Shown here: one piece after another, positions 15,915-31,917 of the stretch
How the letters are laid out: each line of letters opens with the position of its first letter
Position numbering within the stretch: position 1 is the first letter of the stretch
Origin: Candidatus Woesearchaeota archaeon
GTDB taxonomy: Archaea > Nanobdellota > Nanobdellia > Pacearchaeales > GW2011-AR1
Assembly (NCBI GenBank): GCA_964365855.1
Contig: CAYIRC010000001.1
Span: 1 to 50,737, forward strand
Length of the DNA: 50,737 nt
Direction: 5' to 3'
The notes under the pieces: generated by a model
Told to the model about the DNA's origin: nothing
Seen by the model: the letters and a program-made list of their open reading frames with translations, nothing else
Databases searched by the model: none
Made by a program: the position numbers and the translations under genes

Positions 15915-16006
15915 GTGGAACAACTCTTTTTATAGTTAAAGATTAGAAAAAAAGAATATATTTAAATTTACCGCAATTTTGCTTGCTTGTATAAATTAAA
16001 ATCATC

Positions 16007-17697: not shown

Positions 17698-17735
17698 GTT
17701 TATTTTTTAATTTTTTAAGTCATATAATAGGCAGT

Positions 17736-17834
17736 CTATATGCCCTTAAACTTTAAGCCACCAACTCTCTTATTTCTATACAAATACAAACCATAAATCT
17801 TGCCATTCTTTCTTGTATATTTCTCGTACACCAC
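17736..17834 (-). CDS. 32-codon ORF carrying the same N-terminal motif as the giant adhesin; likely a detached 5' fragment of the decayed gene downstream
   Basis: GTG GTG TAC... translates to VVYEKYTRKNGKIYGLYLYRNKRVGGLKFKGI-stop. Compare MVYKRFIRKNGRLHGPYYYESYRDG at 15914. It is not in continuous frame with the ATG at 17697. Confidence 0.3.
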   Translation of the reverse strand: MVYEKYTRKNGKIYGLYLYRNKRVGGLKFKGI

Positions 17835-17900
17835 TCTTATAGGATAACCTCTCTTACAACTAAGAATTAAAAGAAAAAGTGAATTTATAAGTATTTCTCT

Positions 17901-18080
17901 AAATCACAAAGTCCTTGAGTTTGTTCGTGGACTTTGGGAGACAGAAAATAAAACGACAGGCATAACTCCAGCTTAAAAGCAGGAGTTTGTTTTCTGTATC
18001 ACAAAACCCTGAAGAGTTTCGTGGTTTTGTGAGAACCGAGAAAATCTACACCATAGACTCCCCAATGAATTGTAGATTTT
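17901..18080. other. cluster of four consecutive hairpins in a 428-bp intergenic region (possible structured RNA or repeat array)
   Basis: H1 stem 17907..17914 / 17929..17936. H2 outer stem 17941..17948 / 17990..17997 with inner stem 17964..17969 / 17982..17987. H3 stem 18000..18008 / 18023..18031. H4 stem 18041..18050 / 18071..18080. Confidence 0.5.
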
Positions 18081-18125
18081 AACGTGTATTCAATTTCCCC
18101 ATAAAATCAAGTAAAACTAGTTCTC

Positions 18126-18854
18126 CTACACTGAATTTTTGCAGCAGAAAGCACTTATTGGTTTATCAGCTGTATCTTTAACCTTAACAGTTAAATCATT
18201 GCCTGTAACACATTTGATTGTAGACCAAGCACCGCCAACACTAGCGCAAGTAATCTTGCAGCATAAAGCATTTGCATTAGGCTTATCATTTGTATCTGTT
18301 ACCTGGCTGGTTAAATCACTTTCAGCAGCTTTTGCAGCAATAACATCCGGGCAAACTTTAACATTACTAACAATAACAGGTGCAAGCCATGTTCCTCCAG
18401 CAATTCCGCAAGTCTTTCCAAGGCCAAATCTCAAGCTGCACTCTGTATTTTTATTAGTTATTGCAATGCCATTAATAGTAAATGTATCTTCTTTTATAGC
18501 TTTGCAGGACTCTACAATATTGTCTTTATAATTATCACAGTTAAATTGTTTATCCGCACTTAATTGACTTTTTATTCTTTCAGAATTACATGTTACATAC
18601 TCTTTCTTGCCACTAACTTTAATTGTTTTTAAATCAGCACAATAACTAGGGGAAGCTCCGTTTTCATTAATGCATGCAGTAACAGCATTAGATTCTAATC
18701 CTCCTCCCGAGCTAAAAATATTGCCTATAGAAGTGGTGATATCATTCCAATTAGGAACAACAAAAATTACAACAAGAACTAAAACAATTGCAGCAATTAT
18801 CAGCCCGACTACCCATCCTTTAGGGTCTGAATCCTGCCCCTTTTTATTCAACAT
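18126..18854 (-). CDS. pilin-like protein with class-III-type signal and Cys-rich tandem C-terminal modules
   Basis: ATG at 18854 (track start TTG 18863). MLNKKGQDSDPKGWVVGLIIAAIVLVLVVIFVV. Two tandem modules TCxxxGGxW...KxC...DLTxxVxDTxDKP...CCK (18138..18413). TTTATAAA box about 25 nt upstream of the ATG. Confidence 0.65.
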   Translation of the reverse strand: MLNKKGQDSDPKGWVVGLIIAAIVLVLVVIFVVPNWNDITTSIGNIFSSGGGLESNAVTACINENGASPSYCADLKTIKVSGKKEYVTCNSERIKSQLSADKQFNCDNYKDNIVESCKAIKEDTFTINGIAITNKNTECSLRFGLGKTCGIAGGTWLAPVIVSNVKVCPDVIAAKAAESDLTSQVTDTNDKPNANALCCKITCASVGGAWSTIKCVTGNDLTVKVKDTADKPISAFCCKNSV

Positions 18855-18897
18855 AAATATCAAAAAGGTTTTTTCTTTATAAATGTTTCTAACTTTT

Positions 18898-19689
18898 TTA
18901 ATTCGAAGCAGGAATTAAGAATTTTATTGCAATATTTTTAAAATTACCATCAATATTAAACTTTTTTTTGCTTGTCAGAGTAATTAAATTATATTCTCCT
19001 TTATTTTCACTCTCTTCCAAAAAATTAGGCAGCTCTTCTTTAAAGCAGTCATAAGCTCCAGTTCCTTTGCATTTTTCGGCAGTTGTATAAATTTTGCCAA
19101 AATCATCAAGTCCTTTTTCAGTTAAGTTAATTGTAACAAAATTATTATCTGGCATGTAATTAATCGCCATGTTAACATCAAGCTTCTCGCCTTCAGCTGC
19201 TTTTATAAGCCCGAACCATATCTCTATAGGTACTTTGGTTTTATGCACAAGCTGTGTTGAAATCAAAAAGTTTTCAACTTTAATTTTTACTAAGCCATCA
19301 CTGAATTCAATGCTTGCAGATTTTGAAGGATATTTTTTAATTTCCTCCGGAAAATTAAAATTCAGTTTGTCTAAAAACATTTTTTCAGCACTCTTCTTAT
19401 CAAAGTTATTTAGAATTAATATGCCATTCTTCATTGGATTTGTCTCGCCAAAAAGAGTTCCTTCTTTTGCCATTTGATTATAGCTTTTTGCTATAGAATT
19501 TTCTCCAGCTTGCTCAAGATAAAACTTAATCTGGTCTTCTTTTCCATAAGCAACATCCAAAAATCTTGAATGCATAATATGTGTCTCAAACCCATTTAAA
19601 TTAATAACAAAACTAAAAAGTGCTGCGCCAGAAATAATCACTGTTGTAATAACCAGTAAAACAATCGAAAGGTCTCCTCTTTTATTCAT
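18898..19689 (-). CDS. pilin-like protein (class-III signal peptide)
   Basis: ATG at 19689 gives MNKRGDLSIVLLVITTVIISGAALF. GGAGG lies 11 nt upstream. Track start 19707 is GTG. Confidence 0.65.
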   Translation of the reverse strand: MNKRGDLSIVLLVITTVIISGAALFSFVINLNGFETHIMHSRFLDVAYGKEDQIKFYLEQAGENSIAKSYNQMAKEGTLFGETNPMKNGILILNNFDKKSAEKMFLDKLNFNFPEEIKKYPSKSASIEFSDGLVKIKVENFLISTQLVHKTKVPIEIWFGLIKAAEGEKLDVNMAINYMPDNNFVTINLTEKGLDDFGKIYTTAEKCKGTGAYDCFKEELPNFLEESENKGEYNLITLTSKKKFNIDGNFKNIAIKFLIPASN

Positions 19690-19690
19690 C

Positions 19691-20290
19691 TTAATTGCTT
19701 CCTCCACAAATCGCTATTTTTCGGTCATTTGATAAAATTAATTCTGCAAATATGCTGCATTCTGCAGCTAGCTTTTTGCTTACAAGTTCAGCCTGCTCTG
19801 CCATTGAAGTATCTGTATTTATATTGCTCCATATGCTCTGCTTTTTAATAATCGCAAAATCTTTATATTTGCCAATTTGATTTGAATAAAATTTTTTATC
19901 AATTTCTTCATCAGCTACAAATACTCTTAGCCAAACTGACTTGTCTGGAAAATTTGTGTCCAAAAAAGCCTGGCTAAGTTCCTTAAATTTTTTAGCTGCT
20001 TCATTTCCAAGAGTAGCATCTTCAACCAGATTTTTAACCTGAATTTTTTTGCTATTAAGCTCAATAGGCATCACAACAAATTTAATAAGTCCTTGTTGCA
20101 TTTCAAAGCTGGATATTGCATCTTTTTCAAAAATATCTTCTGTCTGGCTTACACTAATATCTGGCTTTACACTCTCCTTTTGTGTTGCAATAAAAGTGCT
20201 TGCTGCAACATAAATAAGCATAACAAAAAAAACAATTATAAAAGCTATAACCCATGTTAATGTTACTCCTATCTGTCCTCTATAATTCAT
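19691..20290 (-). CDS. pilin-like protein (class-III signal peptide)
   Basis: MNYRGQIGVTLTWVIAFIIVFFVMLIYVAA. GGGAGG lies 6 nt upstream. The start shares one base with the upstream stop (TAATG). Confidence 0.7.
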   Translation of the reverse strand: MNYRGQIGVTLTWVIAFIIVFFVMLIYVAASTFIATQKESVKPDISVSQTEDIFEKDAISSFEMQQGLIKFVVMPIELNSKKIQVKNLVEDATLGNEAAKKFKELSQAFLDTNFPDKSVWLRVFVADEEIDKKFYSNQIGKYKDFAIIKKQSIWSNINTDTSMAEQAELVSKKLAAECSIFAELILSNDRKIAICGGSN

Positions 20291-20838
20291 TATGTGCCTC
20301 CCATAAAATTTCTTTTGCCAGCTTGATTAGAACCAGCTATTACACTAACATATCCTTGTGCAATCTCTCCATTTTTGTAATATAAAAATACTTTTTCATT
20401 TGTAACGCAAATAGGATAATGAACTGCTTTTGTCCCTTTTCCATTGCTCGAATCCGCAGTTATCTTGCAATCTGCAAGAAAGGAAGCCTGACCCCCGGAA
20501 ATTTCGTCTCTCATAAGTTTTTTAGATTCATTATAAACCCCGATTTTAAAATAAAAATTGCTTCCTTTACCAAATATATTACTGTTCAAGCCGCATTTTT
20601 CAAAAATACCAAAATCTTTATTTAAAACCACAGTATTGAGATGCCCTCGCTCAATAAAACAGTTAACTATTCTATTCGAAAGAACATCAGCTTCAACCGC
20701 TCTTATATCTACGTCGCTTGAATAAAAAACAAGTGTTCCTATAACTATCCCTGCTGCAATAATTATTAATACAAGAAACCACCAAATCGAAAGTAGCTTT
20801 TCCCCGCCTTTTTTATTAAGTTTTAGCATTGATATCAT
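20290..20838 (-). CDS. pilin-like protein (class-III signal peptide)
   Basis: M(ISM)LKLNKKGGEKLLSIWWFLVLIIIAAGIVIG. The ATG at 20829 is an alternative start. Confidence 0.6.
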   Translation of the reverse strand: MISMLKLNKKGGEKLLSIWWFLVLIIIAAGIVIGTLVFYSSDVDIRAVEADVLSNRIVNCFIERGHLNTVVLNKDFGIFEKCGLNSNIFGKGSNFYFKIGVYNESKKLMRDEISGGQASFLADCKITADSSNGKGTKAVHYPICVTNEKVFLYYKNGEIAQGYVSVIAGSNQAGKRNFMGGT

Positions 20839-21268
20839 CCTTCTTGTCAGAAATAATTATCCTCAATAAAACTCCCACTGGCTCTATCTTTATGTTATAG
20901 CTTGAAAAATACTGGAAGCTATAGCCCTGCCCCTTGCCACTCAAATCAACAATAACACGATTATTTTTTTGGTCAATTATTACTATATTTTTTATATTTT
21001 CTTTAGATGCTTTTTTCTGCGCAATTGTTATTCCATCGCTCATATCCAAATACAAAGTCATTTCAGGTTTTGCTCCGTCTATCATCAATGCAATTTGTTT
21101 TGCATAAGTTTGTTCATAAACACCTGCTCCGCTTGCAGACTTCCAGACAAAAAACATTAAAGCAGCAAAAAAAATTATATTTAAAACAATAAAAATCACT
21201 GTTTCAAAAACAACAGTATCTCCTTTTTTGTTGTATAATCCATTTTTTATCATTAAACCTTTAATCAT
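20816..21268 (-). CDS. pilin-like protein (class-III signal peptide)
   Basis: ATG at 21268 (track start TTG 21271). ...LYNKKGDTVVFETVIFIVLNIIFFAALMFFV. Confidence 0.65.
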   Translation of the reverse strand: MIKGLMIKNGLYNKKGDTVVFETVIFIVLNIIFFAALMFFVWKSASGAGVYEQTYAKQIALMIDGAKPEMTLYLDMSDGITIAQKKASKENIKNIVIIDQKNNRVIVDLSGKGQGYSFQYFSSYNIKIEPVGVLLRIIISDKKDDINAKT

Positions 21269-21284
21269 CAAAATATTATAAACT

Positions 21285-21357
21285 TATAGTTAAGGACATT
21301 AACAATTCCGCACATTGTCATTAACTATTTAAGGAAAGACTTATGTCTTTCACTATA
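21285..21357 (+). repeat. 73-nt structured intergenic repeat, copy 1
   Basis: tatagtTaaggacatt...ttAactatttaaggaaagacttatgtctttcactata. Begins 2 nt beyond the stop of 21359..22687. Confidence 0.7.
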
Positions 21358-21358
21358 A

Positions 21359-22687
21359 TTATGGAATATTTTCAAGTGTAGAGCAATACTGTCTTATAGT
21401 ATCTTCGTCATAATTAACCGCCCTAACAGCACTGCAGCCCTCTCTTGCAGAATCTCCAAAGCTTACATCCCCGCAATATCCTGCAGTAACGCTTCTTTGC
21501 CAGTAAACATTTGCCTGCTGCACAGCCCCAGTCACAACTGCCAGTGCAATAATAGCTTTGTCTATATAGCTAAGAGCGCTTAATACCTTCCTTGCGCCTG
21601 CTTTTGCTCCTCCACTGATAAGAGCTTTCTTCGGCACAGCACTTCCCATACTTGTAGGCACAAGTATCCCTCCCTTCGAGGTCTTGTATCCTGGAACAGA
21701 AATTTTAGGTACAGATGGTGTAGGAATGGGGGGCGTAGAAGGAAGTTTTGATTTTGCCGTAGTACGACCAAGACTAAATCCCAATACAGTCGAGGTAACT
21801 GACAAAAGATTGCTAAAAGTTTCTGCATGAGACGGCGAAGTTATCTGCATGAATACAATAGCAACATCATCCTTGCTAAAATCTATCTGCCTCTCTATTG
21901 AGTCATAAACTAAATTCGCTCCCTCTTTTTCAATATTCTTAGTTGTAAGAATTCCGTCGTCTATTTCACTCGAGCTATCAGCACTGTTAGATGTATTTGT
22001 CGAAGCACTCCCAGAACCATCCGAAGCACTCACATCAGCATCTGGTTCCATCTTTACAGCTGCTGAATCAGAAAGCAGATTAGCATCAACATTTATCTGC
22101 CCTCCTTCCTTAGTAAAATAATCAGCATAAGAAATATCCTTGTCCGGAAGCGCATGCGTTGCCATATATCCAAAAACATCAACATTCTTAAGCTGTTCAT
22201 TTCCAAGTCCCTGCTTATCCAGATTTTTCATGTCAAATGAAATTCTCGAACAAATCACACAGCTCGGATAAACATCTCCTAAGCCTGATGCTTGCGCCCA
22301 CCACTGCGAGAAAATGCTTACTTTTCCCTCGCCCATCATAGTCCAGCAGTCATACATCTTGCCAGTGATTACCTTTGCAACCTGGTCAGCATCTTTTACT
22401 TTTACTGTTGTAACACCAGGGGTATTCTCAAGTTGAGGGCACTTGCCGCCGATTAAACCTGAAGTAATGCATGTTTTGTCTGTTTTGCATTTTAATGGCA
22501 CATAATCTTTCAATTGTGCAAAAGAAGGCAATGTTGCTCTGTAAATAACACTCTGATGGCATACTTCTTTGTCAACCTTTCCAGTCCAGCTTAATTGCGA
22601 GATAATAAGCGCAACAATTCCAAATCCAATTACAGTTATAATTATCCATACAAGTGTTCCTGAAGTTATTTCCCCTCTCTTTTTCAT
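21359..22687 (-). CDS. large pilin-like protein (class-III signal, Cys-rich, S/T/P-rich linkers)
   Basis: MKKRGEITSGTLVWIIITVIGFGIVALII. Many Cys, low-complexity SASDGSGSASTNTSNSADSSS and STPPIPTPSVP segments, and a second hydrophobic segment near the C-terminus. Confidence 0.65.
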   Translation of the reverse strand: MKKRGEITSGTLVWIIITVIGFGIVALIISQLSWTGKVDKEVCHQSVIYRATLPSFAQLKDYVPLKCKTDKTCITSGLIGGKCPQLENTPGVTTVKVKDADQVAKVITGKMYDCWTMMGEGKVSIFSQWWAQASGLGDVYPSCVICSRISFDMKNLDKQGLGNEQLKNVDVFGYMATHALPDKDISYADYFTKEGGQINVDANLLSDSAAVKMEPDADVSASDGSGSASTNTSNSADSSSEIDDGILTTKNIEKEGANLVYDSIERQIDFSKDDVAIVFMQITSPSHAETFSNLLSVTSTVLGFSLGRTTAKSKLPSTPPIPTPSVPKISVPGYKTSKGGILVPTSMGSAVPKKALISGGAKAGARKVLSALSYIDKAIIALAVVTGAVQQANVYWQRSVTAGYCGDVSFGDSAREGCSAVRAVNYDEDTIRQYCSTLENIP

Positions 22688-22718
22688 GCTTATTTAAAAT
22701 TTGTTTATTATTTAATTA

Positions 22719-22844
22719 TTATGAAAATAATCTCTCTCTTAAAATAATGAGAGAATACGCCAATATGCCAAATAAAAGTATCCACGGGAAATACTCAATA
22801 AATGTTTCCCAAATGCTTTTTCCTTTTTTGTTTTTTATCGCCAT
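22719..22844 (-). CDS. 41-aa mini-pilin-like ORF (not in the supplied track)
   Basis: Hand translation: MAIKNKKGKSIWETFIEYFPWILLFGILAYSLIILRERLFS-stop. It has a KKG motif, Glu at +5 after Gly, and a hydrophobic helix. It begins 3 nt after the upstream stop. Confidence 0.5.
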   Translation of the reverse strand: MAIKNKKGKSIWETFIEYFPWILLFGILAYSLIILRERLFS

Positions 22845-22847
22845 TTT

Positions 22848-23774
22848 CTATAAATTCTTCGGGTCTTTCTTGCTGGAATATTCAATATAAAGTGTAAATT
22901 CATCCTCACAAATTTTTTCTTTGCTCTCAATCAAGATTCCATTTGCCATAGTGCTGAAGTAATCAATAACCTTAGATAATATTTCATGCTCTTTATTTTG
23001 CTTATCAACATAATACACTCTGATTTCCTCTCTGCTTTGCTTTATAATCTCATCAATATAAGCCTTAATTATCTCTTCTGCTTTAGCCTCGCTTTCACTT
23101 GAAGCCTGTACCTTCCCATTGTCATAATGGCAGTTATTGCCTATAAAAATTTTCAAGAAATTACTAAATAAAATATTTTTTTGTCCGTTAAAATCTATTT
23201 GTTTATTCAGCAGATTATTAAGTGTAGATTCGGCAAGTACAGGAGACATATCTGCAATTATAACGGTTTCACCTTGTTTCTTCAAATAAAGAGTATAAGG
23301 CACTTTGTCAAACAAGATAAATTGAGTTTTAAGACCCGAGGCAATTAAAGAAGTCTTGGATATATCAAGTTTAGTCTGAATTGGTTTGCATACCACACAC
23401 CGGTCAATTCCGGCTTTTTTATAAAAAGAGTTAGAAGAGAATTTCGAACCACAAATACACAAGCAGTCACTTCCTGCACACGCTTGAGGCATGCTTTTTT
23501 CTTTATCAGCGCTAACAACATCAAAATTGTAATAAACTAAATACCTGTCTTTTGGCGCATTTACAAAATACTTTGTAATTTCACCTTCTTTAGTAAGGCT
23601 ATTAACTTTGTTAATAATAGCATCAAGAGTCGCGCGTGTCTGCTCAATTTCAGATTTCTTTCTCATTAAGTCATACATAGATATTCCAAGATAAACTAAA
23701 GCTAAAATGCAAATCGCTGCGATAATTAATTTCAATGCTTCTGGCAGCAAAATCGCTTTTCTATTCAAATTCAT
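22848..23774 (-). CDS. pilin-like protein (atypical signal, Cys-rich)
   Basis: MNLNRKAILLPEALKLIIAAICILALVYLG (basic residues, then Ala instead of Gly). CAGSDCLCICGS and CVVC clusters. Overlaps the upstream gene by 14 nt. Confidence 0.55.
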   Translation of the reverse strand: MNLNRKAILLPEALKLIIAAICILALVYLGISMYDLMRKKSEIEQTRATLDAIINKVNSLTKEGEITKYFVNAPKDRYLVYYNFDVVSADKEKSMPQACAGSDCLCICGSKFSSNSFYKKAGIDRCVVCKPIQTKLDISKTSLIASGLKTQFILFDKVPYTLYLKKQGETVIIADMSPVLAESTLNNLLNKQIDFNGQKNILFSNFLKIFIGNNCHYDNGKVQASSESEAKAEEIIKAYIDEIIKQSREEIRVYYVDKQNKEHEILSKVIDYFSTMANGILIESKEKICEDEFTLYIEYSSKKDPKNL

Positions 23775-24306
23775 TTACCGCTTTCTCTTTGTATGTGCAA
23801 AAAGATATTTGTACACTGACTTTAATAAAAAGTGCATTATTAAGCTTATTAAATTCTTCCTGCGTGATATACTTGCTTATAGATTCATATTTTGCAGAAA
23901 TAATCAATTTCTTATTTTCAACCTTTCCAACCTCGCTACTGCTAAAACCCAAATAAGTCGGCATCAAGATTTTTACGCTGTCTGCACCTTCTATCCTCGC
24001 AAATAATCCTGTTTTCTCGTAACTGCCATGCCTGTAAATCAAAAGATTATGCTTGTCTCCGCTTACCGGTTTGCTTTCTACTCTCGCCACTTTTTCATTG
24101 CATTTAAATCCCAGAGCCATAAGCTTGTCAGGAGTCAATTCAATTACTTTATCGTTGTTGTCATAACTATACCCTGGTAGATTTCGAATGTACGAAATAA
24201 TATCCACTTTAAAGATAAATATCAATACAGCAGCAATAACAACGCATACTAAAAAAATAATAATTATTTTTTCTATTGCATTGCCTTTGCTGTTTAGCCT
24301 CTTCAT
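23761..24306 (-). CDS. pilin-like protein (class-III signal peptide)
   Basis: MKRLNSKGNAIEKIIIIFLVCVVIAAVLIFIF. The start is 1 nt after the stop of the 51-aa ORF. Confidence 0.65.
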   Translation of the reverse strand: MKRLNSKGNAIEKIIIIFLVCVVIAAVLIFIFKVDIISYIRNLPGYSYDNNDKVIELTPDKLMALGFKCNEKVARVESKPVSGDKHNLLIYRHGSYEKTGLFARIEGADSVKILMPTYLGFSSSEVGKVENKKLIISAKYESISKYITQEEFNKLNNALFIKVSVQISFCTYKEKAVNEFE

Positions 24307-24307
24307 T

Positions 24308-24463
24308 TTATCCTCTAAAAAAGTTTCTTAAAAAACCCGAAATATCAACTTTTCCCTTCAGAATAGCATATCCTAAAATCACAATGCCTGCAACAACTGC
24401 TGCAATACCCCAGTAAGCAAGGGTTTCAAAGTCAATAGATAGTTCCCCCCTTTTGAATCTCAT
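24308..24463 (-). CDS. 51-aa mini-pilin-like ORF, first gene of the pilin operon (not in the supplied track)
   Basis: Hand translation: MRFKRGELSIDFETLAYWGIAAVVAGIVILGYAILKGKVDISGFLRNFFRG-stop. KRG motif followed by a hydrophobic helix. Size and shape recall Flp-type pilins. Confidence 0.55.
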   Translation of the reverse strand: MRFKRGELSIDFETLAYWGIAAVVAGIVILGYAILKGKVDISGFLRNFFRG

Positions 24464-24575
24464 TTAAATCAAAATCATTTTGTATTATTAAATATTTGTT
24501 TGTCAATACAAAATTGCAAACCATATAATTTATAACATCTTTCTTCTTTAAATAACAAATTAAAAGAGGATAAAA

Positions 24576-26717
24576 ATGTCTTCAACAGACGAAATTTTAA
24601 GAAAGTACTCTAGAAAGATAGAAGAGCAATTTGATTCAGTTCCGGAATTCTCGCAGGAATATATTCAATTTAAAAGTGAGATGATTCCAGAAATTTCAAG
24701 ATACGAACGCTGGGTAAAATCTCTGGGTAATGTAATAAAGCTAAAAGTTGCGGAAAAAGACAGAATTAATATTAAAAAATATATTGACATCGCTCATCTG
24801 GATGTTACACCCGAGCAGTCTCTTGCATTGGCTATTCTCTCCCTTTTACTAATCGCATTTGCAACAATAGGAATCGTCACTGCAATTTCTATGATTAATA
24901 ATTCATTCGAAGCGCTTTTGTTATTCCTTGGTATAATCACAAGTTTTTTTGTTTTCTACTATGCTTATACAATGCCTCAAAGGCTGGCAAATGCCTGGCG
25001 TTTAAGAGCTTCGTCGCAAATGGTTCCAGCTATACTTTATATCGTAGTCTATATGAAGCATACATCTAATCTTGAGCGCGCAGTAGAATTTGCTGCCCAG
25101 CATCTTGAAGGTCCTCTGGCATTAGATTTCAAAAAAATATTTTATAATGTTGAAATAGGCAAGTTTACAACAATCAAGCAATCTATAGATAATTACTTAG
25201 AATCCTGGAGAGATTACGCACCGGAATTTGTGGAGTCATTTCACTTAATAGAGTCCTCTTTATTTGAGCCATCAGAATCACGGCGCATTCAGATTTTGGA
25301 AAAATCTTTGCAGGTAATTCTTGATGGGATATATGAAAAAATGCTTAAATACTCGCGTGAAATTAGAAGCCCTTTGACTAATGTTTACATGTTGGGAATA
25401 ATTCTTCCAACTCTGGGTCTTGCTCTTATACCCTTGGCATCAACTTTGTTAGGCGGGATAATTAAATGGCAGCATATAATCGTTATCTTTAATATAATAT
25501 TTCCTTTTTTGGTATTTTATTTAACATCCGAAATTTTATTAAAAAGGCCAGGAGGATACGGAGAGTCGTCTGCTCTAGAGCTTAATCCAGACTATGAAAA
25601 ATTTAAATCCAAAAAGCCATGGATTAAATCCTTTCTAATATCATTTCCTCTTTTGATAATTGGTTTGATTCCATTTATTTTCCAAATAAATGCTTTCACA
25701 AATTTTTTAGGCTTGCAGCATGATTACACACTTGGACAATTAGGCTTAAGCTTTTTCCAGGACATGAGTCTTTTCGATTTCAAAGTTTATAACGAAAAGC
25801 TTATCGGCCCCTTTGGTTTATTTGGCTTGTTGCTAAGCTTGCTTATCCCCTTATCAATCGCATTATTTTTTATCATGGCATATACTGAAAAAACAAGAGT
25901 CTTGATAAAAGCTAGAGAAAAAACAAAAATTCTTGAAGAAGAGTTCACAAATTCATTATTTCAACTAGGAAATAGGCTTGGAGACGGCATTCCTGCAGAA
26001 ATCGCTTTTGCTAAAGTTGCTGAATCAACAAAAGGGCAAATCACGCAAAGTTTTTTTGCAATAGTAAATCAAAATATTCAGCAATTAGGAATGTCTCTTG
26101 AGCAGGCGGTTTTTAACAGGAAAAGAGGGGCAATCATCTTTTTCCCCTCGGCGCTGATTTCTACATCTATGAAGATACTTGTAGAATCTGTTAAAAAAGG
26201 TCTTGAAGTTGCTGCTCGCTCCCTAATGTCAATTTCTGAATATGTAAAAAATATTCAAAAAATAAATCAAAGATTAAGAGATTTGCTTGCAGAAGTAGTT
26301 TCAGATATGAAGTCAAATATGACTTTCTTAGCTCCTCTTTTAGCAGGCATTGTTATCGGCCTCTCTGCAATGATTGTAACAATATTAAATAAGCTTCAGC
26401 TGCTTCAAGCCTCTCTTGGTGGCGAAAGCGGCTTGGAAGGTTTAGGTTCCTTTGCCACAATAACAAGCCTGTTTAACATAAACGAAATGATTCCAACATA
26501 CTTCCTCCAGATTACAATCGGAGTTTATATTATCGAAGTTATATTTATACTTACAGGCACTCTAGTCACTGTTGACTCTGGTAAAGATATGTTAAAAGAA
26601 AAATATGACCTGGCAAAAAATTTGAAGATTGGAATCGTTCTTTATCTTGGAGCAGGATTAGTTTCAATTCTAGCTCTTACCCTTCTAGCTCAGATATCCC
26701 TAGCAGGCCTGACTTAA
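24576..26717 (+). CDS. type IV pilus/archaellum platform membrane protein (PilC/TadC/FlaJ, T2SS-F family)
   Basis: 713-aa polytopic membrane protein with two soluble helical T2SS-F-like domains (e.g. EEEFTNSLFQLGNRLGDGIPAEIAFAKVAE...GMSLEQAV). Divergent from the pilin operon. GAGG lies upstream of the ATG. Confidence 0.75.
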   Translation: MSSTDEILRKYSRKIEEQFDSVPEFSQEYIQFKSEMIPEISRYERWVKSLGNVIKLKVAEKDRINIKKYIDIAHLDVTPEQSLALAILSLLLIAFATIGIVTAISMINNSFEALLLFLGIITSFFVFYYAYTMPQRLANAWRLRASSQMVPAILYIVVYMKHTSNLERAVEFAAQHLEGPLALDFKKIFYNVEIGKFTTIKQSIDNYLESWRDYAPEFVESFHLIESSLFEPSESRRIQILEKSLQVILDGIYEKMLKYSREIRSPLTNVYMLGIILPTLGLALIPLASTLLGGIIKWQHIIVIFNIIFPFLVFYLTSEILLKRPGGYGESSALELNPDYEKFKSKKPWIKSFLISFPLLIIGLIPFIFQINAFTNFLGLQHDYTLGQLGLSFFQDMSLFDFKVYNEKLIGPFGLFGLLLSLLIPLSIALFFIMAYTEKTRVLIKAREKTKILEEEFTNSLFQLGNRLGDGIPAEIAFAKVAESTKGQITQSFFAIVNQNIQQLGMSLEQAVFNRKRGAIIFFPSALISTSMKILVESVKKGLEVAARSLMSISEYVKNIQKINQRLRDLLAEVVSDMKSNMTFLAPLLAGIVIGLSAMIVTILNKLQLLQASLGGESGLEGLGSFATITSLFNINEMIPTYFLQITIGVYIIEVIFILTGTLVTVDSGKDMLKEKYDLAKNLKIGIVLYLGAGLVSILALTLLAQISLAGLT

Positions 26718-28987
26718 AAATTTTTAGAGTTTTCAATAGCCCATTTTTTCCATTCAGGAAAAACTCTTTCACTCAAGGGGATTCCGATTTCTTCTCTGAT
26801 ATCACCGCTTATTCTATGAAAAGCAGTATTGCTAAGTGAGTTAAATCTTGCTTCCATTAGTTCAGGCTTATTAAGCTTTTTAGATAAGTCAACAATTTCC
26901 TGTTTTATTTTTCCCCTTAAAATAATATTGTCATAAACAGCATCCCAGTTTCCAGCCCATCCTTTGATACTCCCTGCAATATTCTTGATAATTTGGGACT
27001 CGCCATTAATAAGGTCATCTGTTGGTTCAAGCTCATCTTTTTCAACATTATATCTCAATAAATCAACAAATCCTCTTTCTTCAACAGGGTCTTTTGTCCA
27101 ATGCTTTCTTACTTCAGAAATCTGTACAACTCTTTTCATTGAATGTAATCCATCAGGAGTTTTAATAGGATTCGCGACAATTATCAGGTCAGTTGCTTTA
27201 AAGCTTGTAGCTTGAACATTAAGGTCATTTACAACTCTGTCAAATACTCCATAAGGCGAATCTCCATGAATTGTGCCAGCAACTACATTAGCTAACGCTC
27301 CAACTCTCATAGCTTCATAAAGCGCTTTTGCTTCAGTACTTCTGACCTCTCCAACAATTAAAGCAGAATCTCCAAGCCTTAGGCTTGCTCTTATGCCCTC
27401 TGATGCTTCGATTTCTGTTGTTCCGCTCACAAGTGCGCTTCTGACTCTCATTCTTAAAATATCATACCCTATCGCCCTTAAGGCATCAACTGGAAGTTCA
27501 AGAGTGTCTTCGATAACTATTGTTCTGAATTTTGGCATTATCTCAAGCATTAAGCTTCCTAAAAGAGAAGTTTTTCCAGAGCTTCTTGTTCCTGCAACTA
27601 ATAAAGTCCGGCTTCCATCAATCATAAAGCTGAATAATCCAGCAGTAAAAGAATTAAGCATCTTATTATTTATAAACAAAGGAAGAGTCCACGGATTGTC
27701 CCTGTGTCTTCTTAATGCATAAGCTAATCCTGAAGGAGAAAGAGGTTCTTTAATTGCAGCAACTCTTGCTCTAACACTGCCAAAGCTCAAATCAGTATCA
27801 AGAATAGGATTAGCCTCATCTAAAGGTCTGCCCGATTGTAATCTTAATTTTCCTGCCCAGGAATCTGCATCTTCATAGCTTGGAAGAATGTTAGTCACGC
27901 ATTCATCATATTTTTCATGTCTTATAAAAATAGGATTCTGTGCAATAGGGGCATTTAATACAATATCCTGAATTTTTGTGTCCATTAAAAGAACTTCTAT
28001 AAGTCCAAAGCCAATAGTATATCTAACAAGGACTCTTGCCAATTTATTCAGCTCTCGATAATTCAGGCTTATCCCTTTGCTCTTGGAAAGTTCATTAAGA
28101 AGGTCTCTGGCAACATTAAAAAAAACCTGGCGGGTTCTTTCGGGGTCAGTAAATTCCTCAGCTTTAGGCCTGTGTTCTGTCAAAACATTTCTTGCTAAGT
28201 TTAAGAGCATATGTTGCTCCTCACTTAAGCTGTATTCAATAGGATTTATATGGTAAAAATATTTAGGGTCATCCTTTCTTTTTAGTATAGTCACTGTAAC
28301 GCTTTCATTTTCATTTTTTATTTCATACTGGTCAACAAGTTCAGAATTCTCAGGGAATTGCGAAACCAATCTTGTAAATGTAAAATTAGGTAAAATATCC
28401 GGTCTGAATATATTCCTATATATTTCTCTGCTTCCTCTCGAATAATCAATCAGTTTTGGAAAAATTGCTTTTATAAATTTAGTATTTTCAAGTATTGAAA
28501 AAAATCGTTCAAGTAACCTTAAGTAATTTGTTGCAGCAGGTTTATTTATCACCTGGCCGCTGTCAATCTGCTCTTTTAATGCTCTAATTCGTTTATTAAG
28601 CTCAGAATAACAAAGTACTGGGTCTTGCTTTAATAATTCTAAAAGATAAACTAGTTCAGAATGTAACTCTGCAACATTTCCAAATAAGCTTAGTTTTTCA
28701 GGAGATAAAATCGCTTCTTGTTTTGTAAGAAAAATATAGAGATAAGCAATTTCAGTAAGCAAAAAAACCTGGTCAGAAGGATAGTTAAAATTTCGCTGTT
28801 GTACAAAAACAAGTCTTGAAATTCCAGGATTGTCAATAAGAGCATCAATTGTCCGTGCCATCACAAATCCGTCATCTGCTATAGACGGAACAAAAGAGGC
28901 TCCCAAATAGTTCACATAAAGAATATTTTCACCCTCTCGTCGTTCAATCTCATTTGAATAAAGTTTTGAACCTGTTTTAAACATCAT
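26714..28987 (-). CDS. type IV pilus/secretion ATPase (PilB/FlaI/TadA, GspE-VirB11 superfamily)
   Basis: Walker A GTRSSGKTS, Walker B TIVIEDTLEL, Asp box GEVRSTEA, His box AGTIHGDSP. Long archaeal-type N-terminal domain. ATG at 28987 (track start TTG 28993). Its stop overlaps the stop of 24576..26717 (TTAA). Confidence 0.85.
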   Translation of the reverse strand: MMFKTGSKLYSNEIERREGENILYVNYLGASFVPSIADDGFVMARTIDALIDNPGISRLVFVQQRNFNYPSDQVFLLTEIAYLYIFLTKQEAILSPEKLSLFGNVAELHSELVYLLELLKQDPVLCYSELNKRIRALKEQIDSGQVINKPAATNYLRLLERFFSILENTKFIKAIFPKLIDYSRGSREIYRNIFRPDILPNFTFTRLVSQFPENSELVDQYEIKNENESVTVTILKRKDDPKYFYHINPIEYSLSEEQHMLLNLARNVLTEHRPKAEEFTDPERTRQVFFNVARDLLNELSKSKGISLNYRELNKLARVLVRYTIGFGLIEVLLMDTKIQDIVLNAPIAQNPIFIRHEKYDECVTNILPSYEDADSWAGKLRLQSGRPLDEANPILDTDLSFGSVRARVAAIKEPLSPSGLAYALRRHRDNPWTLPLFINNKMLNSFTAGLFSFMIDGSRTLLVAGTRSSGKTSLLGSLMLEIMPKFRTIVIEDTLELPVDALRAIGYDILRMRVRSALVSGTTEIEASEGIRASLRLGDSALIVGEVRSTEAKALYEAMRVGALANVVAGTIHGDSPYGVFDRVVNDLNVQATSFKATDLIIVANPIKTPDGLHSMKRVVQISEVRKHWTKDPVEERGFVDLLRYNVEKDELEPTDDLINGESQIIKNIAGSIKGWAGNWDAVYDNIILRGKIKQEIVDLSKKLNKPELMEARFNSLSNTAFHRISGDIREEIGIPLSERVFPEWKKWAIENSKNF

Positions 28988-29083
28988 TTTCAACCTAACT
29001 TACAACGAGTCTAATTAAATAAATTTCTGTTTTACAAGCAACACATCCAAACTATTTTAAACCCCAAAAGATTAATAAAATCC

Positions 29084-29383
29084 ATGGAAGAGGTATATTC
29101 AGGACAGTCGCAATTTTCAGATATAAGTATGAAGCTTAGGGACATTGAAGAAAAGCAAAGGCTTCTAAAAGAAAGAACTTTGCTTATAGGCCAGACATTT
29201 ATCGCTGACAGAGATAAAAATTTCGAAGAAATCCAGGAAATTAAAAAATCAATGATAAAATTAAAAGAAGAAACCGGCAGAATTAAAGAAATACTGCAAA
29301 GAGTGACAGAGCAACTTGGAAATGTTGCAAGAAAAGAAGAATTAATAATACTGCAGAGACAACTCGATTTAATTCGAAAATAA
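29084..29383 (+). CDS. coiled-coil protein, 99 aa
   Basis: Heptad-rich K/E/L sequence. Divergent from the ATPase gene. Antisense track ORF 29032..29463 is judged spurious. Confidence 0.6.
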   Translation: MEEVYSGQSQFSDISMKLRDIEEKQRLLKERTLLIGQTFIADRDKNFEEIQEIKKSMIKLKEETGRIKEILQRVTEQLGNVARKEELIILQRQLDLIRK

Positions 29384-29397
29384 CTGCCATACGCAAC

Positions 29398-30042
29398 ATG
29401 AGTACAATAGACGAAATAACAAAGATGCAGCAAGAAGGAAGGTCCGAACCTGAAATTGCACAAATTCTTAGAGAAAGAGGAATTTCTCCAAATGAGATTA
29501 TAAACGCATTGTCACAAACAAAAATAAAAGAGGCAGTTTATGGTGAAGAGTCTAGCCAAAACTCGATGGACGAAGAAGCCCAGTCAGCAGAAGGTATAAC
29601 TGGTATGCAGCCATCATTATTGCAGACAGTGCCTCAAGAGGATTATGCTCAGGGGCAGCAAACTTATCAGCTACCCTATCCAGAAGGCCAGCAAAATTAT
29701 CAAAATTATGAACAGCAAGAACCTTCATATTCAGGATACTATCAGCAAGGCTTAAGCTCAGACACAATAACCGAAATTTCAGAACAGGTAGTAGCTGAAA
29801 AAATGTCTCAAATAAAAAATCAATTAGAAAAAGCTCTAGATCTTAAAGCTTCAGTTGAATCAAAAATCGAATACATCGATGAAAGGTTGAAGAGAATCGA
29901 AAAAATAATTGATAGGTTGCAATTGTCAGTATTGCAAAAAGTAGGAGAATATGTAACAGACGTTAGTGACCTTAAAAAAGAGTTTATCGAAACTCAAAAA
30001 TCCTTTAAAACACTTGCTCATCATAAGCATCAAAGTTCTTAA
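29398..30042 (+). CDS. protein with small N-terminal helical (UBA-like) domain, Q/Y-rich low-complexity linker and C-terminal coiled coil
   Basis: IDEITKMQQEGRSEPEIAQILRERGISPNEIINALSQ, then QGQQTYQLPYPEGQQNYQNYEQQEPSYSGYYQQG, then a coiled coil. Family not recognised. Confidence 0.6.
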   Translation: MSTIDEITKMQQEGRSEPEIAQILRERGISPNEIINALSQTKIKEAVYGEESSQNSMDEEAQSAEGITGMQPSLLQTVPQEDYAQGQQTYQLPYPEGQQNYQNYEQQEPSYSGYYQQGLSSDTITEISEQVVAEKMSQIKNQLEKALDLKASVESKIEYIDERLKRIEKIIDRLQLSVLQKVGEYVTDVSDLKKEFIETQKSFKTLAHHKHQSS

Positions 30043-30198: not shown

Positions 30199-30711
30199 TT
30201 AAGTATGCGATGGTATTGTTGTGTTAGACTCTTTGCCAGTGCTTACAACAACAGCAATAATTAAGCCTGCAATCAAAACAGCGCCAATAATAAATCCTGC
30301 ATTACTCTCAAAAAATCCGTATCCAGTCCATCCAAATCTTTCAAAAGACTGCACAACAATTACTATGCCAATAACCGCTCCAAGCGCTCCAAGCCCCCAC
30401 TTCCAGTATTTATCATCTTCCTTTCTAATAAATAATCCAACTAAAATAACAAAAGCAAGAATAATAGAAATTCCAACACCTAACCTTGAAAAAATCTGCG
30501 TGAAAAAATCAGAAAGAAAAAAATTCCATCGTATAGAAATTGCAGCAATAACAAATGCAATTATAACATGCACCCCTTTGTTCTTCCCAAAAATTTTTGT
30601 TTCTGATAAGATTCCAAAAACAACTGCAAAAATTAAAAGAAATGGCAGCAATAAATAAAAAAATCCAACAGATTCTAGTTGATAGACTATGCTTTGAATA
30701 TTAAACACCAT
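30199..30711 (-). CDS. polytopic membrane protein, paralogue of 31971..32477
   Basis: Shared block LLPFLLIFAVVFGILSETKIFGKNK versus ILPFLLVFALVFAVLQRSKILGDGK. TTTAAATA lies 19 nt upstream of the ATG. Confidence 0.7.
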   Translation of the reverse strand: MVFNIQSIVYQLESVGFFYLLLPFLLIFAVVFGILSETKIFGKNKGVHVIIAFVIAAISIRWNFFLSDFFTQIFSRLGVGISIILAFVILVGLFIRKEDDKYWKWGLGALGAVIGIVIVVQSFERFGWTGYGFFESNAGFIIGAVLIAGLIIAVVVSTGKESNTTIPSHT

Positions 30712-31809: not shown

Positions 31810-31825
31810 TCCAGCTTTATTCTTT

Positions 31826-31864
31826 AAATCAAAAAGCCCTTGAGTTTGTTTGTGGACTCTGGGA
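31826..31864. repeat. copy of hairpin element H1 (35 of 39 nt identical to 17901..17939), stem partly degraded
   Basis: aaatcaaaaagcccttgagtttgtttgtggactctggga versus aaatcacaaagtccttgagtttgttcgtggactttggga. Confidence 0.65.
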
Positions 31865-31902
31865 TGCTCAAGATGCGACCACATCTTAAAAGATGGGTTT
31901 TC

Positions 31903-31917
31903 GTCAAGCATCTTAAC
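31903..31917. promoter_or_regulatory. third copy of the palindrome (GTCAAGCATCTTAAC), in the pyrD upstream region
   Basis: Together with its flanks it matches the 16005..16025 copy closely (TCGTCAAGCATCTT[G/A]ACATAA). Here it lies downstream of a TTTAAATA box relative to pyrD. Confidence 0.45.

What the first reader, a model, noticed from the sequence alone, without database searches (positions are those of the whole stretch)
18126..28987. Ten-gene prepilin-like operon with PilC/TadC-like and PilB/FlaI-like genes: an expanded type IV pilus (Tad/Epd-like) locus beside giant adhesins
Ten consecutive minus-strand genes (24463 down to 18126) are tightly packed, with 1-3 nt gaps or overlaps and GGAGG-type sites before internal starts. 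Each begins with a short basic N-terminus and then a hydrophobic helix. Nine of the ten carry [K/R]G immediately before it (RFKRG/E, NSKG/N, NKKG/K, KKRG/E, NKKG/D, NKKG/G, NYRG/Q, NKRG/D, NKKG/Q), which is the archaeal class-III signal pattern. Sizes run from 41 to 442 aa, and several are Cys-rich, which is unusual for archaeal pilins. The platform gene (24576..26717) is divergent from this operon. It converges on the ATPase gene so that the two stop codons overlap (TTAA at 26714..26717). No A24/FlaK/PibD-type prepilin peptidase is visible in the window. The locus sits within 1 kb of a dockerin protein and of about 15 kb of adhesin genes. In a putative episymbiont this cluster would be the obvious host-contact machine, and its composition (two mini-pilins plus eight large minor pilins) does not match any archaeal pilus operon I can name.
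Basis: partly seen in the sequence, partly recalled or inferred. Interest (0 to 1): 0.75.

Follow-up and report, generated by a model that had tools for sequence, protein, structure and literature searches.

The report
Conserved DPANN type IV pilus locus
This is a real and complete-looking type IV pilus-like assembly locus of a tiny symbiotic archaeon (Pacearchaeota group); the same gene set recurs in hundreds of related genomes and was already flagged in 2024, so it is a solid example of a known kind, not a new system.

Summary
Ten consecutive minus-strand genes (24463 to 18126) each start with a very short basic leader ending in [K/R][G/A], followed by a hydrophobic helix. They sit beside a 713-aa polytopic membrane protein and a 759-aa secretion ATPase.

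The ATPase is a TadA/FlaI/GspE-superfamily member. The membrane protein misses Pfam T2SSF itself. It is still a divergent T2SSF platform: half of its distant full-length relatives hit PF00482, and its model matches the EpsF/OutF/PilC cytoplasmic domains.

The module is strongly conserved. About 590 stretches in species-representative DPANN genomes encode the platform. In the fetched loci the same ordered set of about ten prepilin-like genes recurs, including a ~50-aa and a ~37-aa helix-only protein. In most relatives a Peptidase_A24 gene follows the last pilin gene. That gene is absent from this window, where a genome-specific block (dockerin protein, giant surface proteins) takes its place.

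Two coiled-coil genes next to the ATPase fit the description of the "CCP" type IV pilus loci reported for cluster-2 DPANN (Hamm et al. 2024). I did not compare sequences directly.

Best reading: a Tad/Epd-like filament machine, probably for cell contact. None of the ten pilin-like families is in Pfam or NCBIfam. Novelty is modest.

The parts
24308..24463 (-). mini-A: 51-aa prepilin-like protein (MRFKRG/ELSID...), helix-only; candidate filament subunit
   Evidence: In most complete gene chains of related loci the first gene is a ~50-aa ORF. It has a conserved acidic residue near +5 and a conserved C-terminal motif GKGxGAI[DE][YF]xKNLxRFG[RK].
23761..24306 (-). 181-aa prepilin-like protein (NSKG/NAIEK...), the variable 'second gene' (170-605 aa in relatives)
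   Evidence: No Pfam or NCBIfam family, including for the large versions in relatives.
22848..23774 (-). 308-aa prepilin-like protein with alanine at -1 (NRKA/ILLPEAL), 9 Cys
   Evidence: Orthologues in 33 loci at about 30% identity. It lies before mini-B here and in L009, L020, L034, L051 and L062; in L001 and L003 its homologue lies after the w05-family gene.
22719..22844 (-). mini-B: 41-aa prepilin-like protein (NKKG/KSIWE...), helix-only, Glu at +5
   Evidence: Forty-one ORFs of 33-43 aa from related loci align with it (conserved LWI[IV]F core, acidic residue at +4/+5).
21359..22687 (-). 442-aa prepilin-like protein (KKRG/EITSG...), the best conserved of the ten; Cys-rich domain of unknown fold
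   Evidence: 104 homologues, E down to 1e-95, none annotated. Ten invariant Cys, CHQS and CVIC motifs. AF2 model pLDDT 62, with a confident N-terminal helix plus an alpha/beta domain at 40-195 and a second helix at 366-405. No PDB fold match.
20816..21253 (-). 145-aa prepilin-like protein (NKKG/DTVVFE...); the ORF extends to 21271
   Evidence: Orthologues in 47 loci at about 38% identity.
20290..20829 (-). 179-aa prepilin-like protein (NKKG/GEKLL...); the ORF extends to 20838
   Evidence: Orthologues in 47 loci.
19691..20290 (-). 199-aa prepilin-like protein (MNYRG/QIGVT...), GGAGG upstream
   Evidence: Collinear orthologues.
18898..19689 (-). 263-aa prepilin-like protein (MNKRG/DLSIV...), GGAGG upstream; the ORF extends to 19707
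18126..18854 (-). 242-aa prepilin-like protein (MLNKKG/QDSDPKGWVV...), 14 Cys; last gene of the operon; the ORF extends to 18863
24576..26717 (+). Platform: 713-aa polytopic membrane protein, divergent T2SSF (TadC/FlaJ-type), single fused gene
   Evidence: No direct Pfam, NCBIfam or PDB sequence hit. More than 3364 homologues, the best at 66-73% identity. 1166 clusters at 50% identity. T2SSF is hit by 7 of 30 close relatives and 31 of 62 distant ones. The AF2 model (pLDDT 75) matches EpsF, OutF and PilC cytoplasmic domains.
26714..28993 (-). Assembly ATPase, 759 aa (an ATG at 28987 gives 757 aa), TadA/FlaI/GspE superfamily, with about 200 extra N-terminal residues
   Evidence: On reading the sequence: Walker A GTRSSGKT, IEDTLEL, Walker B LIVGEVR, His box GTIHG. 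74 of 85 sequences (84 loci plus the window) carry an orthologue, median 69% identity.
29084..29383 (+). 99-aa coiled-coil protein (CCP), divergent from the ATPase gene
   Evidence: Found in 61 of 85 sequences at about 51% identity. It is divergent from the ATPase gene in every locus listed, in both locus layouts. Fits the CCP genes described by Hamm et al. 2024; no direct comparison was made.
29398..30042 (+). 214-aa protein: small N-terminal domain, Q-rich linker and coiled coil (second CCP)
   Evidence: Found in 58 of 85 sequences at about 42% identity. Weak coiled-coil family hits only.
30199..30711 (-). 170-aa polytopic membrane protein, syntenic with the locus in relatives; role unknown, membership uncertain
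   Evidence: Found in 52 of 85 sequences. A paralogue lies at 31971..32489.

Best explanation
The locus encodes a type IV filament (type IV pilus-like) assembly machine of a Pacearchaeota/Woesearchaeota-type DPANN archaeon. It is one instance of a module conserved across that lineage.

Proposed mechanism, with each step marked as shown or inferred:
1. The ten proteins insert into the membrane with the short basic leader (consensus M-N-K-[KR]-[GA]) in the cytoplasm. This is inferred from the sequence.
2. A FlaK/PibD-like A24 aspartyl peptidase removes the 4-10-residue leader after [GA]. This is inferred. The peptidase gene is adjacent in most relatives but lies outside this window.
3. The hexameric TadA/FlaI-type ATPase, docked on the cytoplasmic helical domains of the 713-aa T2SSF-type platform, extracts processed subunits from the membrane and stacks them into a filament. 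This is inferred from homology to Tad, Epd and PilB/PilC systems.
4. One or both of the two helix-only mini proteins (mature length about 45 and 33 residues, acidic residue near +5) form the filament shaft, as Flp does in Tad pili and EpdE in Epd pili. This is a hypothesis, about 40% likely.
5. The eight larger proteins, each single-copy and in fixed order, act as minor pilins. They would form an initiation or tip complex and carry the fast-evolving, partly Cys-rich surface domains. This is a hypothesis.
6. The two coiled-coil proteins next to the ATPase gene are cytoplasmic accessory or regulatory parts. This is a hypothesis.

The most likely role is attachment to a host cell or surface. Uptake of DNA or nutrients is a second possibility.
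For: ATPase:
- PF00437 at 45.5 bits.
- TadA 1.5e-35 and FlaI 6.9e-35.
- PDB matches 2oap at 8e-30, CpaF at 3e-20, FlaI at 4e-16.
- Nucleotide-binding motifs are intact (read).

Platform:
- 31 of 62 distant family members hit T2SSF, best 3.2e-10, and no other family recurs except GspF-like SpoIIIAB.
- Foldseek gives probability 1.00 and TM 0.68-0.75 to EpsF, OutF and PilC domains.
- The best profile-versus-PDB hit is GspF, over the LxxLxxxGxPxxxAL motif, but at E 0.22.

Substrates:
- 10 of 10 have class-III-like N-termini.
- Over 376 ORFs from related loci, the unconstrained positions are M 45% at -5, N 53% at -4 and K 75% at -3. Leaders are mostly 5 residues.

Peptidase:
- Peptidase_A24 lies within 2.5 kb of the operon end in 27 of 39 complete chains and somewhere in the locus in 33 of 39.
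- Pfam PF01478 and a weak FlaK match.
- The GGGD/AGGD motif is visible in the sequences.

Synteny:
- The same ordered module appears in two layouts.
- About 590 genomic stretches in species-representative genomes encode the platform.

Evolutionary rates:
- Platform and ATPase are 65-69% identical across loci, the pilin-like proteins 29-42%. That contrast is typical of a conserved motor with variable surface parts.

Literature:
- Conserved CpaF/TadC/CCP loci in cluster-2 DPANN, including Pacearchaeota, with proteomic detection in Ca. Nanohaloarchaeum antarcticus (PMC11291902).
- The Epd major pilin lacks a globular domain, like Tad (bioRxiv 10.64898/2026.04.22.720090).
Against: - No A24 peptidase is in the window, so processing in this genome is unproven.
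- None of the ten proteins hits any pilin, Flp, TadE or class-III-signal family in Pfam or NCBIfam.
- On my recollection of the FlaFind motif, which I did not verify, only about four of the ten would match. The residues at +1 are unusually polar or charged (E, N, K, E, D, G, Q, D, Q), and the hydrophobic helix often begins 5-12 residues after the putative cleavage site.
- The best conserved large protein (442 aa) has a second moderately hydrophobic helix at 367-389 and no pilin-like PDB match.
- The window's own platform protein fails Pfam T2SSF.
- No filament has been seen on any organism carrying this exact module.
- The motif statistics come from my own script, which fixes positions -2 and -1.
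Confidence: 0.8

Rival explanations
1. The same machinery builds a short pseudopilus or cell-surface display and secretion device, in the manner of T2SS pseudopilins, the Com pseudopilus or the Sulfolobus bindosome. It would not build a long pilus. The eight large single-copy proteins would be its working parts, and the mini proteins would be membrane-embedded adaptors.
For: - Eight of the ten substrates are large, and each is a fixed-order single copy, like GspG-K or ComGC-GG.
- No gene is duplicated or marked as an abundant major pilin.
- The hydrophobic helices start some residues after the cleavage site.
- Weak BasE and ComGA matches exist for the ATPase.
- SPIII-carrying binding proteins that functionalise type IV filament machines are proposed to be widespread in archaea.
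Against: - No solute-binding or enzyme domain is found in any of the ten or in the large relatives.
- BasE scores 59.9 bits against a cut-off of 1000.
- The helix-only mini proteins with an acidic residue near +5 look like Flp/Epd-type shaft subunits.
- No ComEC or other DNA channel was found in the window.
Confidence: 0.15
2. The ten ORFs are ordinary N-terminally anchored (signal-anchor or Sec) membrane proteins. They merely sit next to a secretion ATPase and platform pair and are not its substrates.
For: - No pilin family hit.
- Several would fail the FlaFind motif as I recall it (not verified).
- Positive-inside leaders followed by a hydrophobic helix are common in membrane proteins.
Against: - A fixed M-N-K-[KR]-[GA] leader of about 5 residues on all ten genes, and on about 376 orthologous or paralogous ORFs.
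- Strict co-location with ATPase, platform and A24 peptidase in two different layouts.
- No other real gene in the window has the pattern.
- The neighbouring surface proteins use different signals: Sec-type leaders, or a long N-terminal anchor.
Confidence: 0.03
3. The locus is an archaellum (motility) operon.
For: The FlaI model matches the ATPase at 6.9e-35 over most of its length. The relatives' peptidase weakly resembles FlaK.
Against: - The FlaI score is 120.8 bits against a cut-off of 550, and TadA scores equally well.
- No archaellin, FlaF, FlaG, FlaH, FlaX or FlaCDE family is hit by any gene in the window or the loci.
- The PDB match is better to afGspE and CpaF than to FlaI.
Confidence: 0.02

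Closest known systems
Type IV pilus-like loci with coiled-coil proteins conserved in cluster-2 DPANN (Hamm et al. 2024, Nat Commun 15:6449, PMC11291902)
   Same: A CpaF-type ATPase, a TadC-type platform and adjacent coiled-coil protein genes. The lineage range explicitly includes Pacearchaeota, Woesearchaeota and Nanoarchaeota. The window has all three components in the described neighbourhood.
   Different: In the text I could read, that paper describes the loci only coarsely: ATPase, platform and CCP, with FlaF/PilA in one locus. The ten-gene prepilin module, the two mini proteins and the adjacent A24 peptidase are not described there. I could not compare sequences with the Nanohaloarchaeum proteins directly.
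Epd pilus of Methanococcus maripaludis / archaeal type IV filament System 1 (Clade 1 of Makarova, Koonin and Albers 2016)
   Same: A large cluster (11 genes) with several essential minor pilins, a small major pilin without a globular domain, KG/Q-type processing sites and a dedicated peptidase. System 1 is reported in some DPANN.
   Different: Epd has two separate platform genes (EpdJ, EpdK), and EppA needs Gln at +1. Here there is one fused 713-aa platform. Gln at +1 occurs in only 20% of family members and in 2 of 10 proteins in the window. No DUF2341 adhesin or FleN/MinD gene is present. ATPase clade membership was not tested.
Bacterial Tad/Flp pilus (CpaF/TadA, TadB, TadC, Flp, TadE/F, TadV)
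   Same: The ATPase matches the TadA model and the CpaF structures. The candidate shaft subunits are helix-only and about as small as Flp or smaller. Pseudopilin-like minor subunits sit in the same operon.
   Different: There is no Flp_Fap or TadE Pfam hit and no G/XXXXEY motif. Leaders are 4-10 residues, not the roughly 20-30 residues I recall for Flp. The platform is single and fused. As expected for an archaeon, there is no secretin or TadZ/TadG.
Archaellum (FlaB, FlaF/G, FlaH, FlaI, FlaJ, FlaK)
   Same: The same superfamily of ATPase, platform and A24 peptidase, with class III signals.
   Different: No archaellin and no FlaF, FlaG, FlaH or FlaX. The FlaI equivalog cut-off is missed by a wide margin.

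Membership tests
Type IV filament superfamily (archaeal type IV pilus-like system) | Secretion ATPase of the PilB/GspE/TadA/FlaI family | tested here: met
   PF00437 at 45.5 bits (cut-off 24.9). TadA and FlaI models at about 1e-35. PDB matches to afGspE, CpaF and FlaI.
Type IV filament superfamily (archaeal type IV pilus-like system) | Polytopic platform protein with T2SSF (PilC/GspF/TadC/FlaJ) domains | tested here: met
   The window protein itself has no PF00482 hit at E<=1. However, 7 of 30 close and 31 of 62 distant full-length relatives hit PF00482. The AF2 model matches EpsF, OutF and PilC cytoplasmic domains at TM 0.68-0.75 with probability 1.0. The feature is met by transitive homology and fold, not by direct score.
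Type IV filament superfamily (archaeal type IV pilus-like system) | Substrates with class III signal peptides (short basic leader, [KR][GA] cleavage site, hydrophobic helix) | tested here: met
   10 of 10 pass my motif and hydropathy test. The leader M-N-K-[KR]-[GA] is conserved over 376 ORFs in relatives. FlaFind and PilFind themselves were not available. Actual cleavage is not testable here.
Type IV filament superfamily (archaeal type IV pilus-like system) | Class III signal (A24 prepilin) peptidase | tested here: inconclusive
   Absent from the 50.7-kb window. Present next to the operon in 27 of 39 complete related chains. The rest of this genome could not be read.
DPANN cluster-2 type IV pilus/CCP locus (Hamm et al. 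2024) | CpaF-like ATPase and TadC-like platform with coiled-coil protein genes next to them, in a cluster-2 DPANN genome | tested here: met
   The ATPase, platform and two coiled-coil ORFs (29084..29383, 29398..30042) are adjacent. The pairing is conserved in 58-61 of 85 sequences. Homologues carry Pacearchaeota, Woesearchaeota or Nanoarchaeota labels. Direct homology to the Nanohaloarchaeum CCPs was not tested.
Epd pilus / archaeal type IV filament System 1 | Two separate platform genes (EpdJ/EpdK-like) | tested here: not met
   There is a single 713-aa platform gene here and in all fetched loci.
Epd pilus / archaeal type IV filament System 1 | EppA-type processing site with conserved Gln at +1 | tested here: not met
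   Gln at +1 in 2 of 10 window proteins and 20% of 376 family ORFs.
Epd pilus / archaeal type IV filament System 1 | ATPase in Clade 1 of the archaeal secretion-ATPase tree | not tested
Bacterial Tad/Flp pilus | Flp pilin (PF04964, G/XXXXEY), TadE/F pseudopilins (PF07811), separate TadB and TadC | tested here: not met
   No Flp_Fap or TadE hit at E<=1 for any of the ten. One fused platform gene. The TadA model scores 123 bits against a cut-off of 373.
Archaellum | Archaellin (FlaB) with FlaF/G, FlaH and FlaI at equivalog score | tested here: not met
   No such Pfam or NCBIfam hits. FlaI scores 120.8 bits against a cut-off of 550.
Bindosome assembly system (Bas) | BasE-type ATPase and class-III-signal sugar-binding proteins | tested here: not met
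   BasE scores 59.9 bits against a cut-off of 1000. No solute-binding domain in any of the ten or in large relatives.

The most novel reading that the evidence does not exclude
The module would be the universal host-contact organelle of the Pacearchaeota/Woesearchaeota radiation. Its shaft would be built from the smallest pilins known: mature mini-B of about 33 residues or mini-A of about 45 residues, essentially a single helix. It would be capped by a conserved complex of eight minor pilins made of uncharacterised folds, including a 10-cysteine domain. It would work with cytoplasmic coiled-coil partners that have no counterpart in characterised pilus systems. That would make it a distinct, lineage-defining class of type IV filament, more than a variant of Epd or Tad.
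Probability: 0.2. Interest if true: 0.7.

Novelty: new member of a known kind. Interest (0 to 1): 0.4.

Why it matters
No Pacearchaeota or Woesearchaeota are cultivated, as far as I know, and how they contact hosts is unknown. One groundwater study even stated that type IV pili are missing in DPANN genomes.

This locus shows a complete-looking, strongly conserved filament machine. The platform and ATPase are about 65-70% identical across the fetched loci, and the surface subunits evolve fast. It gives concrete targets:
- a leader motif (M-N-K-[KR]-[GA]) for finding substrates genome-wide;
- two mini proteins as candidate shaft subunits;
- ten unannotated protein families that current databases miss.

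The value is in annotation and in guiding cryo-ET and proteomics. No new principle is revealed.

Tried and rejected
- Direct Pfam, NCBIfam and PDB sequence searches of the platform gave nothing useful. The question was resolved through relatives and structure instead.
- hhalign of the N-terminal against the C-terminal half of the platform, looking for the T2SSF internal duplication, gave no signal (probability 0.2; the alignment was too shallow, Neff 1.7).
- A profile of 79 diverse platform relatives against PDB sequences put GspF on top, but only at E 0.22.
- The AF2 model of the 442-aa protein reached pLDDT 62. Foldseek against PDB gave only noise, with probability at or below 0.09. Its fold remains unknown, and I cannot say it is pilin-like beyond the N-terminal helix.
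- Pfam and NCBIfam on all ten pilin-like proteins, and on ten large 'second-gene' relatives, gave no family.
- An exact-sequence look-up of the window's platform protein, to reach the rest of the genome, was not on record.
- Rfam over the whole window gave no hit. The 428-nt spacer after the operon folds no better than shuffles (z -1.4).
- A link between the pilus locus and the neighbouring adhesins is rejected as a conserved feature. tblastn of the dockerin protein, the giant proteins, the 118-aa ORF, DUF58 and vWA against 84 related loci found nothing; MoxR gave only two weak hits at about 24% identity.
- The archaellum reading is rejected (see the rival explanations).
- ATPase clade assignment (Makarova clades 1-4) could not be done for lack of reference sequences.

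Full report
**1. What is in the sequence**

Ten minus-strand ORFs run from 24463 down to 18126. Their sizes are 51, 181, 308, 41, 442, 151, 182, 199, 269 and 245 aa from the first possible start.

A 713-aa ORF (24576..26717, +) is divergent from them. A 759-aa ORF (26714..28993, -) converges on it, and the two stop codons overlap as TTAA at 26714..26717.

Packing is tight but less uniform than stated. Gaps are 1, -14, 3, 31, 87-105, -14/-23, -1, 1/-17 and 34-43 nt. Clear GGAGG/GAGG sites precede only four starts: 24306, 20290, 19689 and the platform gene.

The window is about 33% G+C. It carries archaeal replication genes: PolD DP1 and DP2, and Cdc6.

**2. The N-termini**

Nine proteins have [K/R]G after a short leader, and the 308-aa protein has NRKA/ILLPEAL.

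I wrote a simple test: [KR][GA] within 22 residues, followed by an 18-residue window of mean hydropathy of at least 1.7. All ten pass, with values of 2.1-3.8. Among other ORFs of 110 aa or more in the window, only two marginal matches appear, at 1.76-1.79. One is an internal start in the platform gene and the other is the helicase.

Each of the ten has a single strong N-terminal hydrophobic segment. The exception is the 442-aa protein, which has a second, weaker one at 367-389.

Cysteine counts are high in three of them: 14, 10 and 9.

The neighbouring surface proteins use other signals. Some have Sec-type leaders, one has a long N-terminal anchor, and one has a C-terminal anchor.

**3. The motor**

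The ATPase hits Pfam T2SSE above threshold (45.5 bits). It hits the NCBIfam TadA (1.5e-35) and FlaI (6.9e-35) models about equally, and both scores are far below the equivalog cut-offs. Its best solved relatives are the archaeal GspE 2oap (8e-30), CpaF (3e-20) and FlaI (4e-16).

Walker A, Asp box, Walker B and His box motifs can be read in the sequence. About 200 N-terminal residues have no match. That fits a recent observation that variable N-terminal domains track subsystems of archaeal type IV filament ATPases.

Four results bear on it:
- T2SSF is hit weakly by 7 of 30 close relatives.
- T2SSF is hit by 31 of 62 distant full-length relatives, best 3.2e-10. The only other recurrent families are a membrane-protein tail and GspF-like SpoIIIAB.
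- An AlphaFold2 model (pLDDT 75, pTM 0.73) matches the cytoplasmic helical domains of EpsF, OutF and PilC with Foldseek probability 1.00, target-normalised TM 0.68-0.75 and rmsd about 3 A. The top hit is the PilC chain of the type IVa pilus machine model.
- A family profile puts GspF first among PDB sequences, over the canonical motif, although only at E 0.22.

I conclude that it is a divergent, fused two-domain-length T2SSF platform.

**4. Conservation**

The platform family is large:
- more than 3364 homologues in the word-indexed search, the top 120 at 66-73% identity;
- 1166 clusters at 50% identity;
- about 590 stretches in species-representative genomes, labelled Pacearchaeota, Woesearchaeota or Nanoarchaeota.

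In 84 fetched loci the neighbourhood is conserved. The canonical module is, in order:
- a ~50-aa ORF (mini-A);
- a variable 170-605-aa ORF;
- a ~37-aa ORF (mini-B);
- a ~350-aa ORF (the family of the window's 442-aa protein);
- then ORFs of about 205, 140, 150, 190, 155 and 150-200 aa.

All of these have the same kind of N-terminus.

Two layouts exist among 39 complete chains. In 27, the pilin operon is divergent from the platform and the ATPase is convergent, as in the window. In 12, ATPase, platform, pilins and peptidase are co-directional.

The window's local order, with the 308-aa gene before mini-B, recurs in L009, L020, L034, L051 and L062.

Over 376 such ORFs, the positions my script does not constrain are M 45% at -5, N 53% at -4 and K 75% at -3. 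The position at -1 is G 71% and A 28%. Leaders are mostly 5 residues long.

Platform and ATPase are about 65-69% identical across loci. The pilin-like proteins are 29-42% identical.

**5. The peptidase**

No A24 peptidase is in the window (plus the Pfam scans).

In relatives a 275-aa Peptidase_A24 gene lies within 2.5 kb of the operon's end in 27 of 39 complete chains, and somewhere in the locus in 33 of 39. It hits PF01478, resembles FlaK weakly, and carries the GGGD/AGGD motif.

In the window that position holds a 428-nt spacer, a 118-aa ORF, the dockerin gene and the giant surface-protein genes. None of these occurs in any of the 84 related loci. The right flank is shared with relatives (coiled-coil genes, small membrane proteins, helicase, ERCC4).

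The adhesin neighbourhood is therefore a genome-specific replacement of the usual left flank. It is not part of the conserved system.

**6. The subunits**

Both mini proteins are real, conserved genes.

Mini-A has an acidic residue around +5 and a conserved C-terminal motif, GKGxGAI[DE][YF]xKNLxRFG[RK]. Mini-B (mature length about 33 residues) has an acidic residue at +4/+5 and a conserved LWI[IV]F core.

Helix-only subunits of this size recall Flp of Tad pili and the Epd major pilin, which also lacks a globular domain.

The 442-aa protein belongs to a family with ten invariant cysteines and with CHQS and CVIC motifs. Its model has a confident N-terminal helix and an alpha/beta domain, but no PDB match.

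None of the ten, and none of ten large relatives, belongs to a Pfam or NCBIfam family.

**7. Comparison with what is known**

Hamm et al. 2024 (PMC11291902) reported two conserved type IV pilus-like loci across cluster-2 DPANN, including Pacearchaeota. The loci hold a CpaF ATPase, a TadC platform and coiled-coil 'CCP' genes. Several proteins encoded in the Ca. Nanohaloarchaeum antarcticus loci, including the coiled-coil proteins, were detected in its proteome.

The window's two coiled-coil ORFs next to the ATPase gene (29084..29383 and 29398..30042) are conserved in 58-61 of 85 sequences. They are divergent from the ATPase gene in every locus listed. They fit that description. I did not compare them with the published CCP sequences.

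Sivabalasarma and Albers (bioRxiv 2026) place an Epd-like 'System 1' in some DPANN, but it is defined by two platform genes. This locus has one.

Makarova, Koonin and Albers 2016 did not cover these lineages.

An earlier groundwater study stated that type IV pili are missing in DPANN. Other surveys simply list them as present.

In the papers I could search, I found no description of the ten-gene prepilin module, its leader consensus or the mini proteins.

**8. Verdict**

The locus is a type IV filament machine of the Tad/Epd functional type (confidence about 0.8).

Three points are inferred, not shown: the shaft role of a mini protein, the tip-complex role of the eight larger proteins, and a host-attachment function.

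It is a new member of a known kind. It belongs to a locus class already flagged in DPANN, and its subunit families are still unannotated.

Interest is moderate (0.4). The locus is useful for annotation and for targeting future imaging and proteomics of uncultivated DPANN, but it would not surprise a specialist.

Noticed in passing
window 2484..5093 (-), with 1578..2480 and 656..1576: A MoxR-type AAA_3 ATPase gene is interrupted by an intein with a LAGLIDADG homing endonuclease. It is followed by DUF58 and vWA/BatA genes. MoxR/vWA pairs are listed as pilus-associated modulators in archaea (abstract of Makarova 2016). This set is 13 kb from the operon. DUF58 and vWA occur in none of the related loci, and MoxR has only two weak hits at about 24% identity.
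   Followed up: partly
window 17698..18125: An unusually long (428 nt) non-coding spacer follows the last pilin gene. It holds two similar hairpins (about 17895-17948 and 17990-18032, 95 nt apart). Overall folding is no better than shuffles (z -1.4), and there is no Rfam hit.
   Followed up: partly
window 30199..30711 (-) and 31971..32489 (-): Two paralogous small polytopic membrane proteins share the motif LPFLL[IV]FA.VF..L...KI.G..K. Two or three copies sit beside the coiled-coil genes in relatives. A dihydroorotate dehydrogenase gene (30730..31935) is inserted between them here. Their role and their link to the pilus locus are unknown.
   Followed up: partly
window 9942..15923 (-), 5139..8858 (-), 8901..9830 (-), 16061..17212 (+): A genome-specific block of surface proteins: a 1993-aa right-handed beta-helix/NosD protein with an N-terminal anchor, a 1239-aa protein with a Sec signal and a C-terminal anchor, a 309-aa Cys-rich protein, and a 383-aa dockerin protein. 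None is present in 84 related loci, and none has a class-III-like leader.
   Followed up: yes
window 41830..42324 (+) and 42423..43031 (+): [quoted passage not shown] It is either a split gene or a pseudogene.
   Followed up: no
window 33750..35279 (+) and 35398..36060 (+): A DEAD/ResIII helicase and an ERCC4 nuclease with HhH motifs are encoded as separate adjacent genes. From my own knowledge, they are fused as Hef in many Euryarchaeota. The same arrangement appears in related loci.
   Followed up: no
window 21359..22687 (-): The 442-aa pilin-like protein carries a low-complexity Ser/Asp-rich insertion (about residues 195-266) and a Pro-rich insertion (about 300-372) that most family members (about 355 aa) lack. 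A 95%-identical 420-aa relative exists in an ENA assembly.
   Followed up: partly
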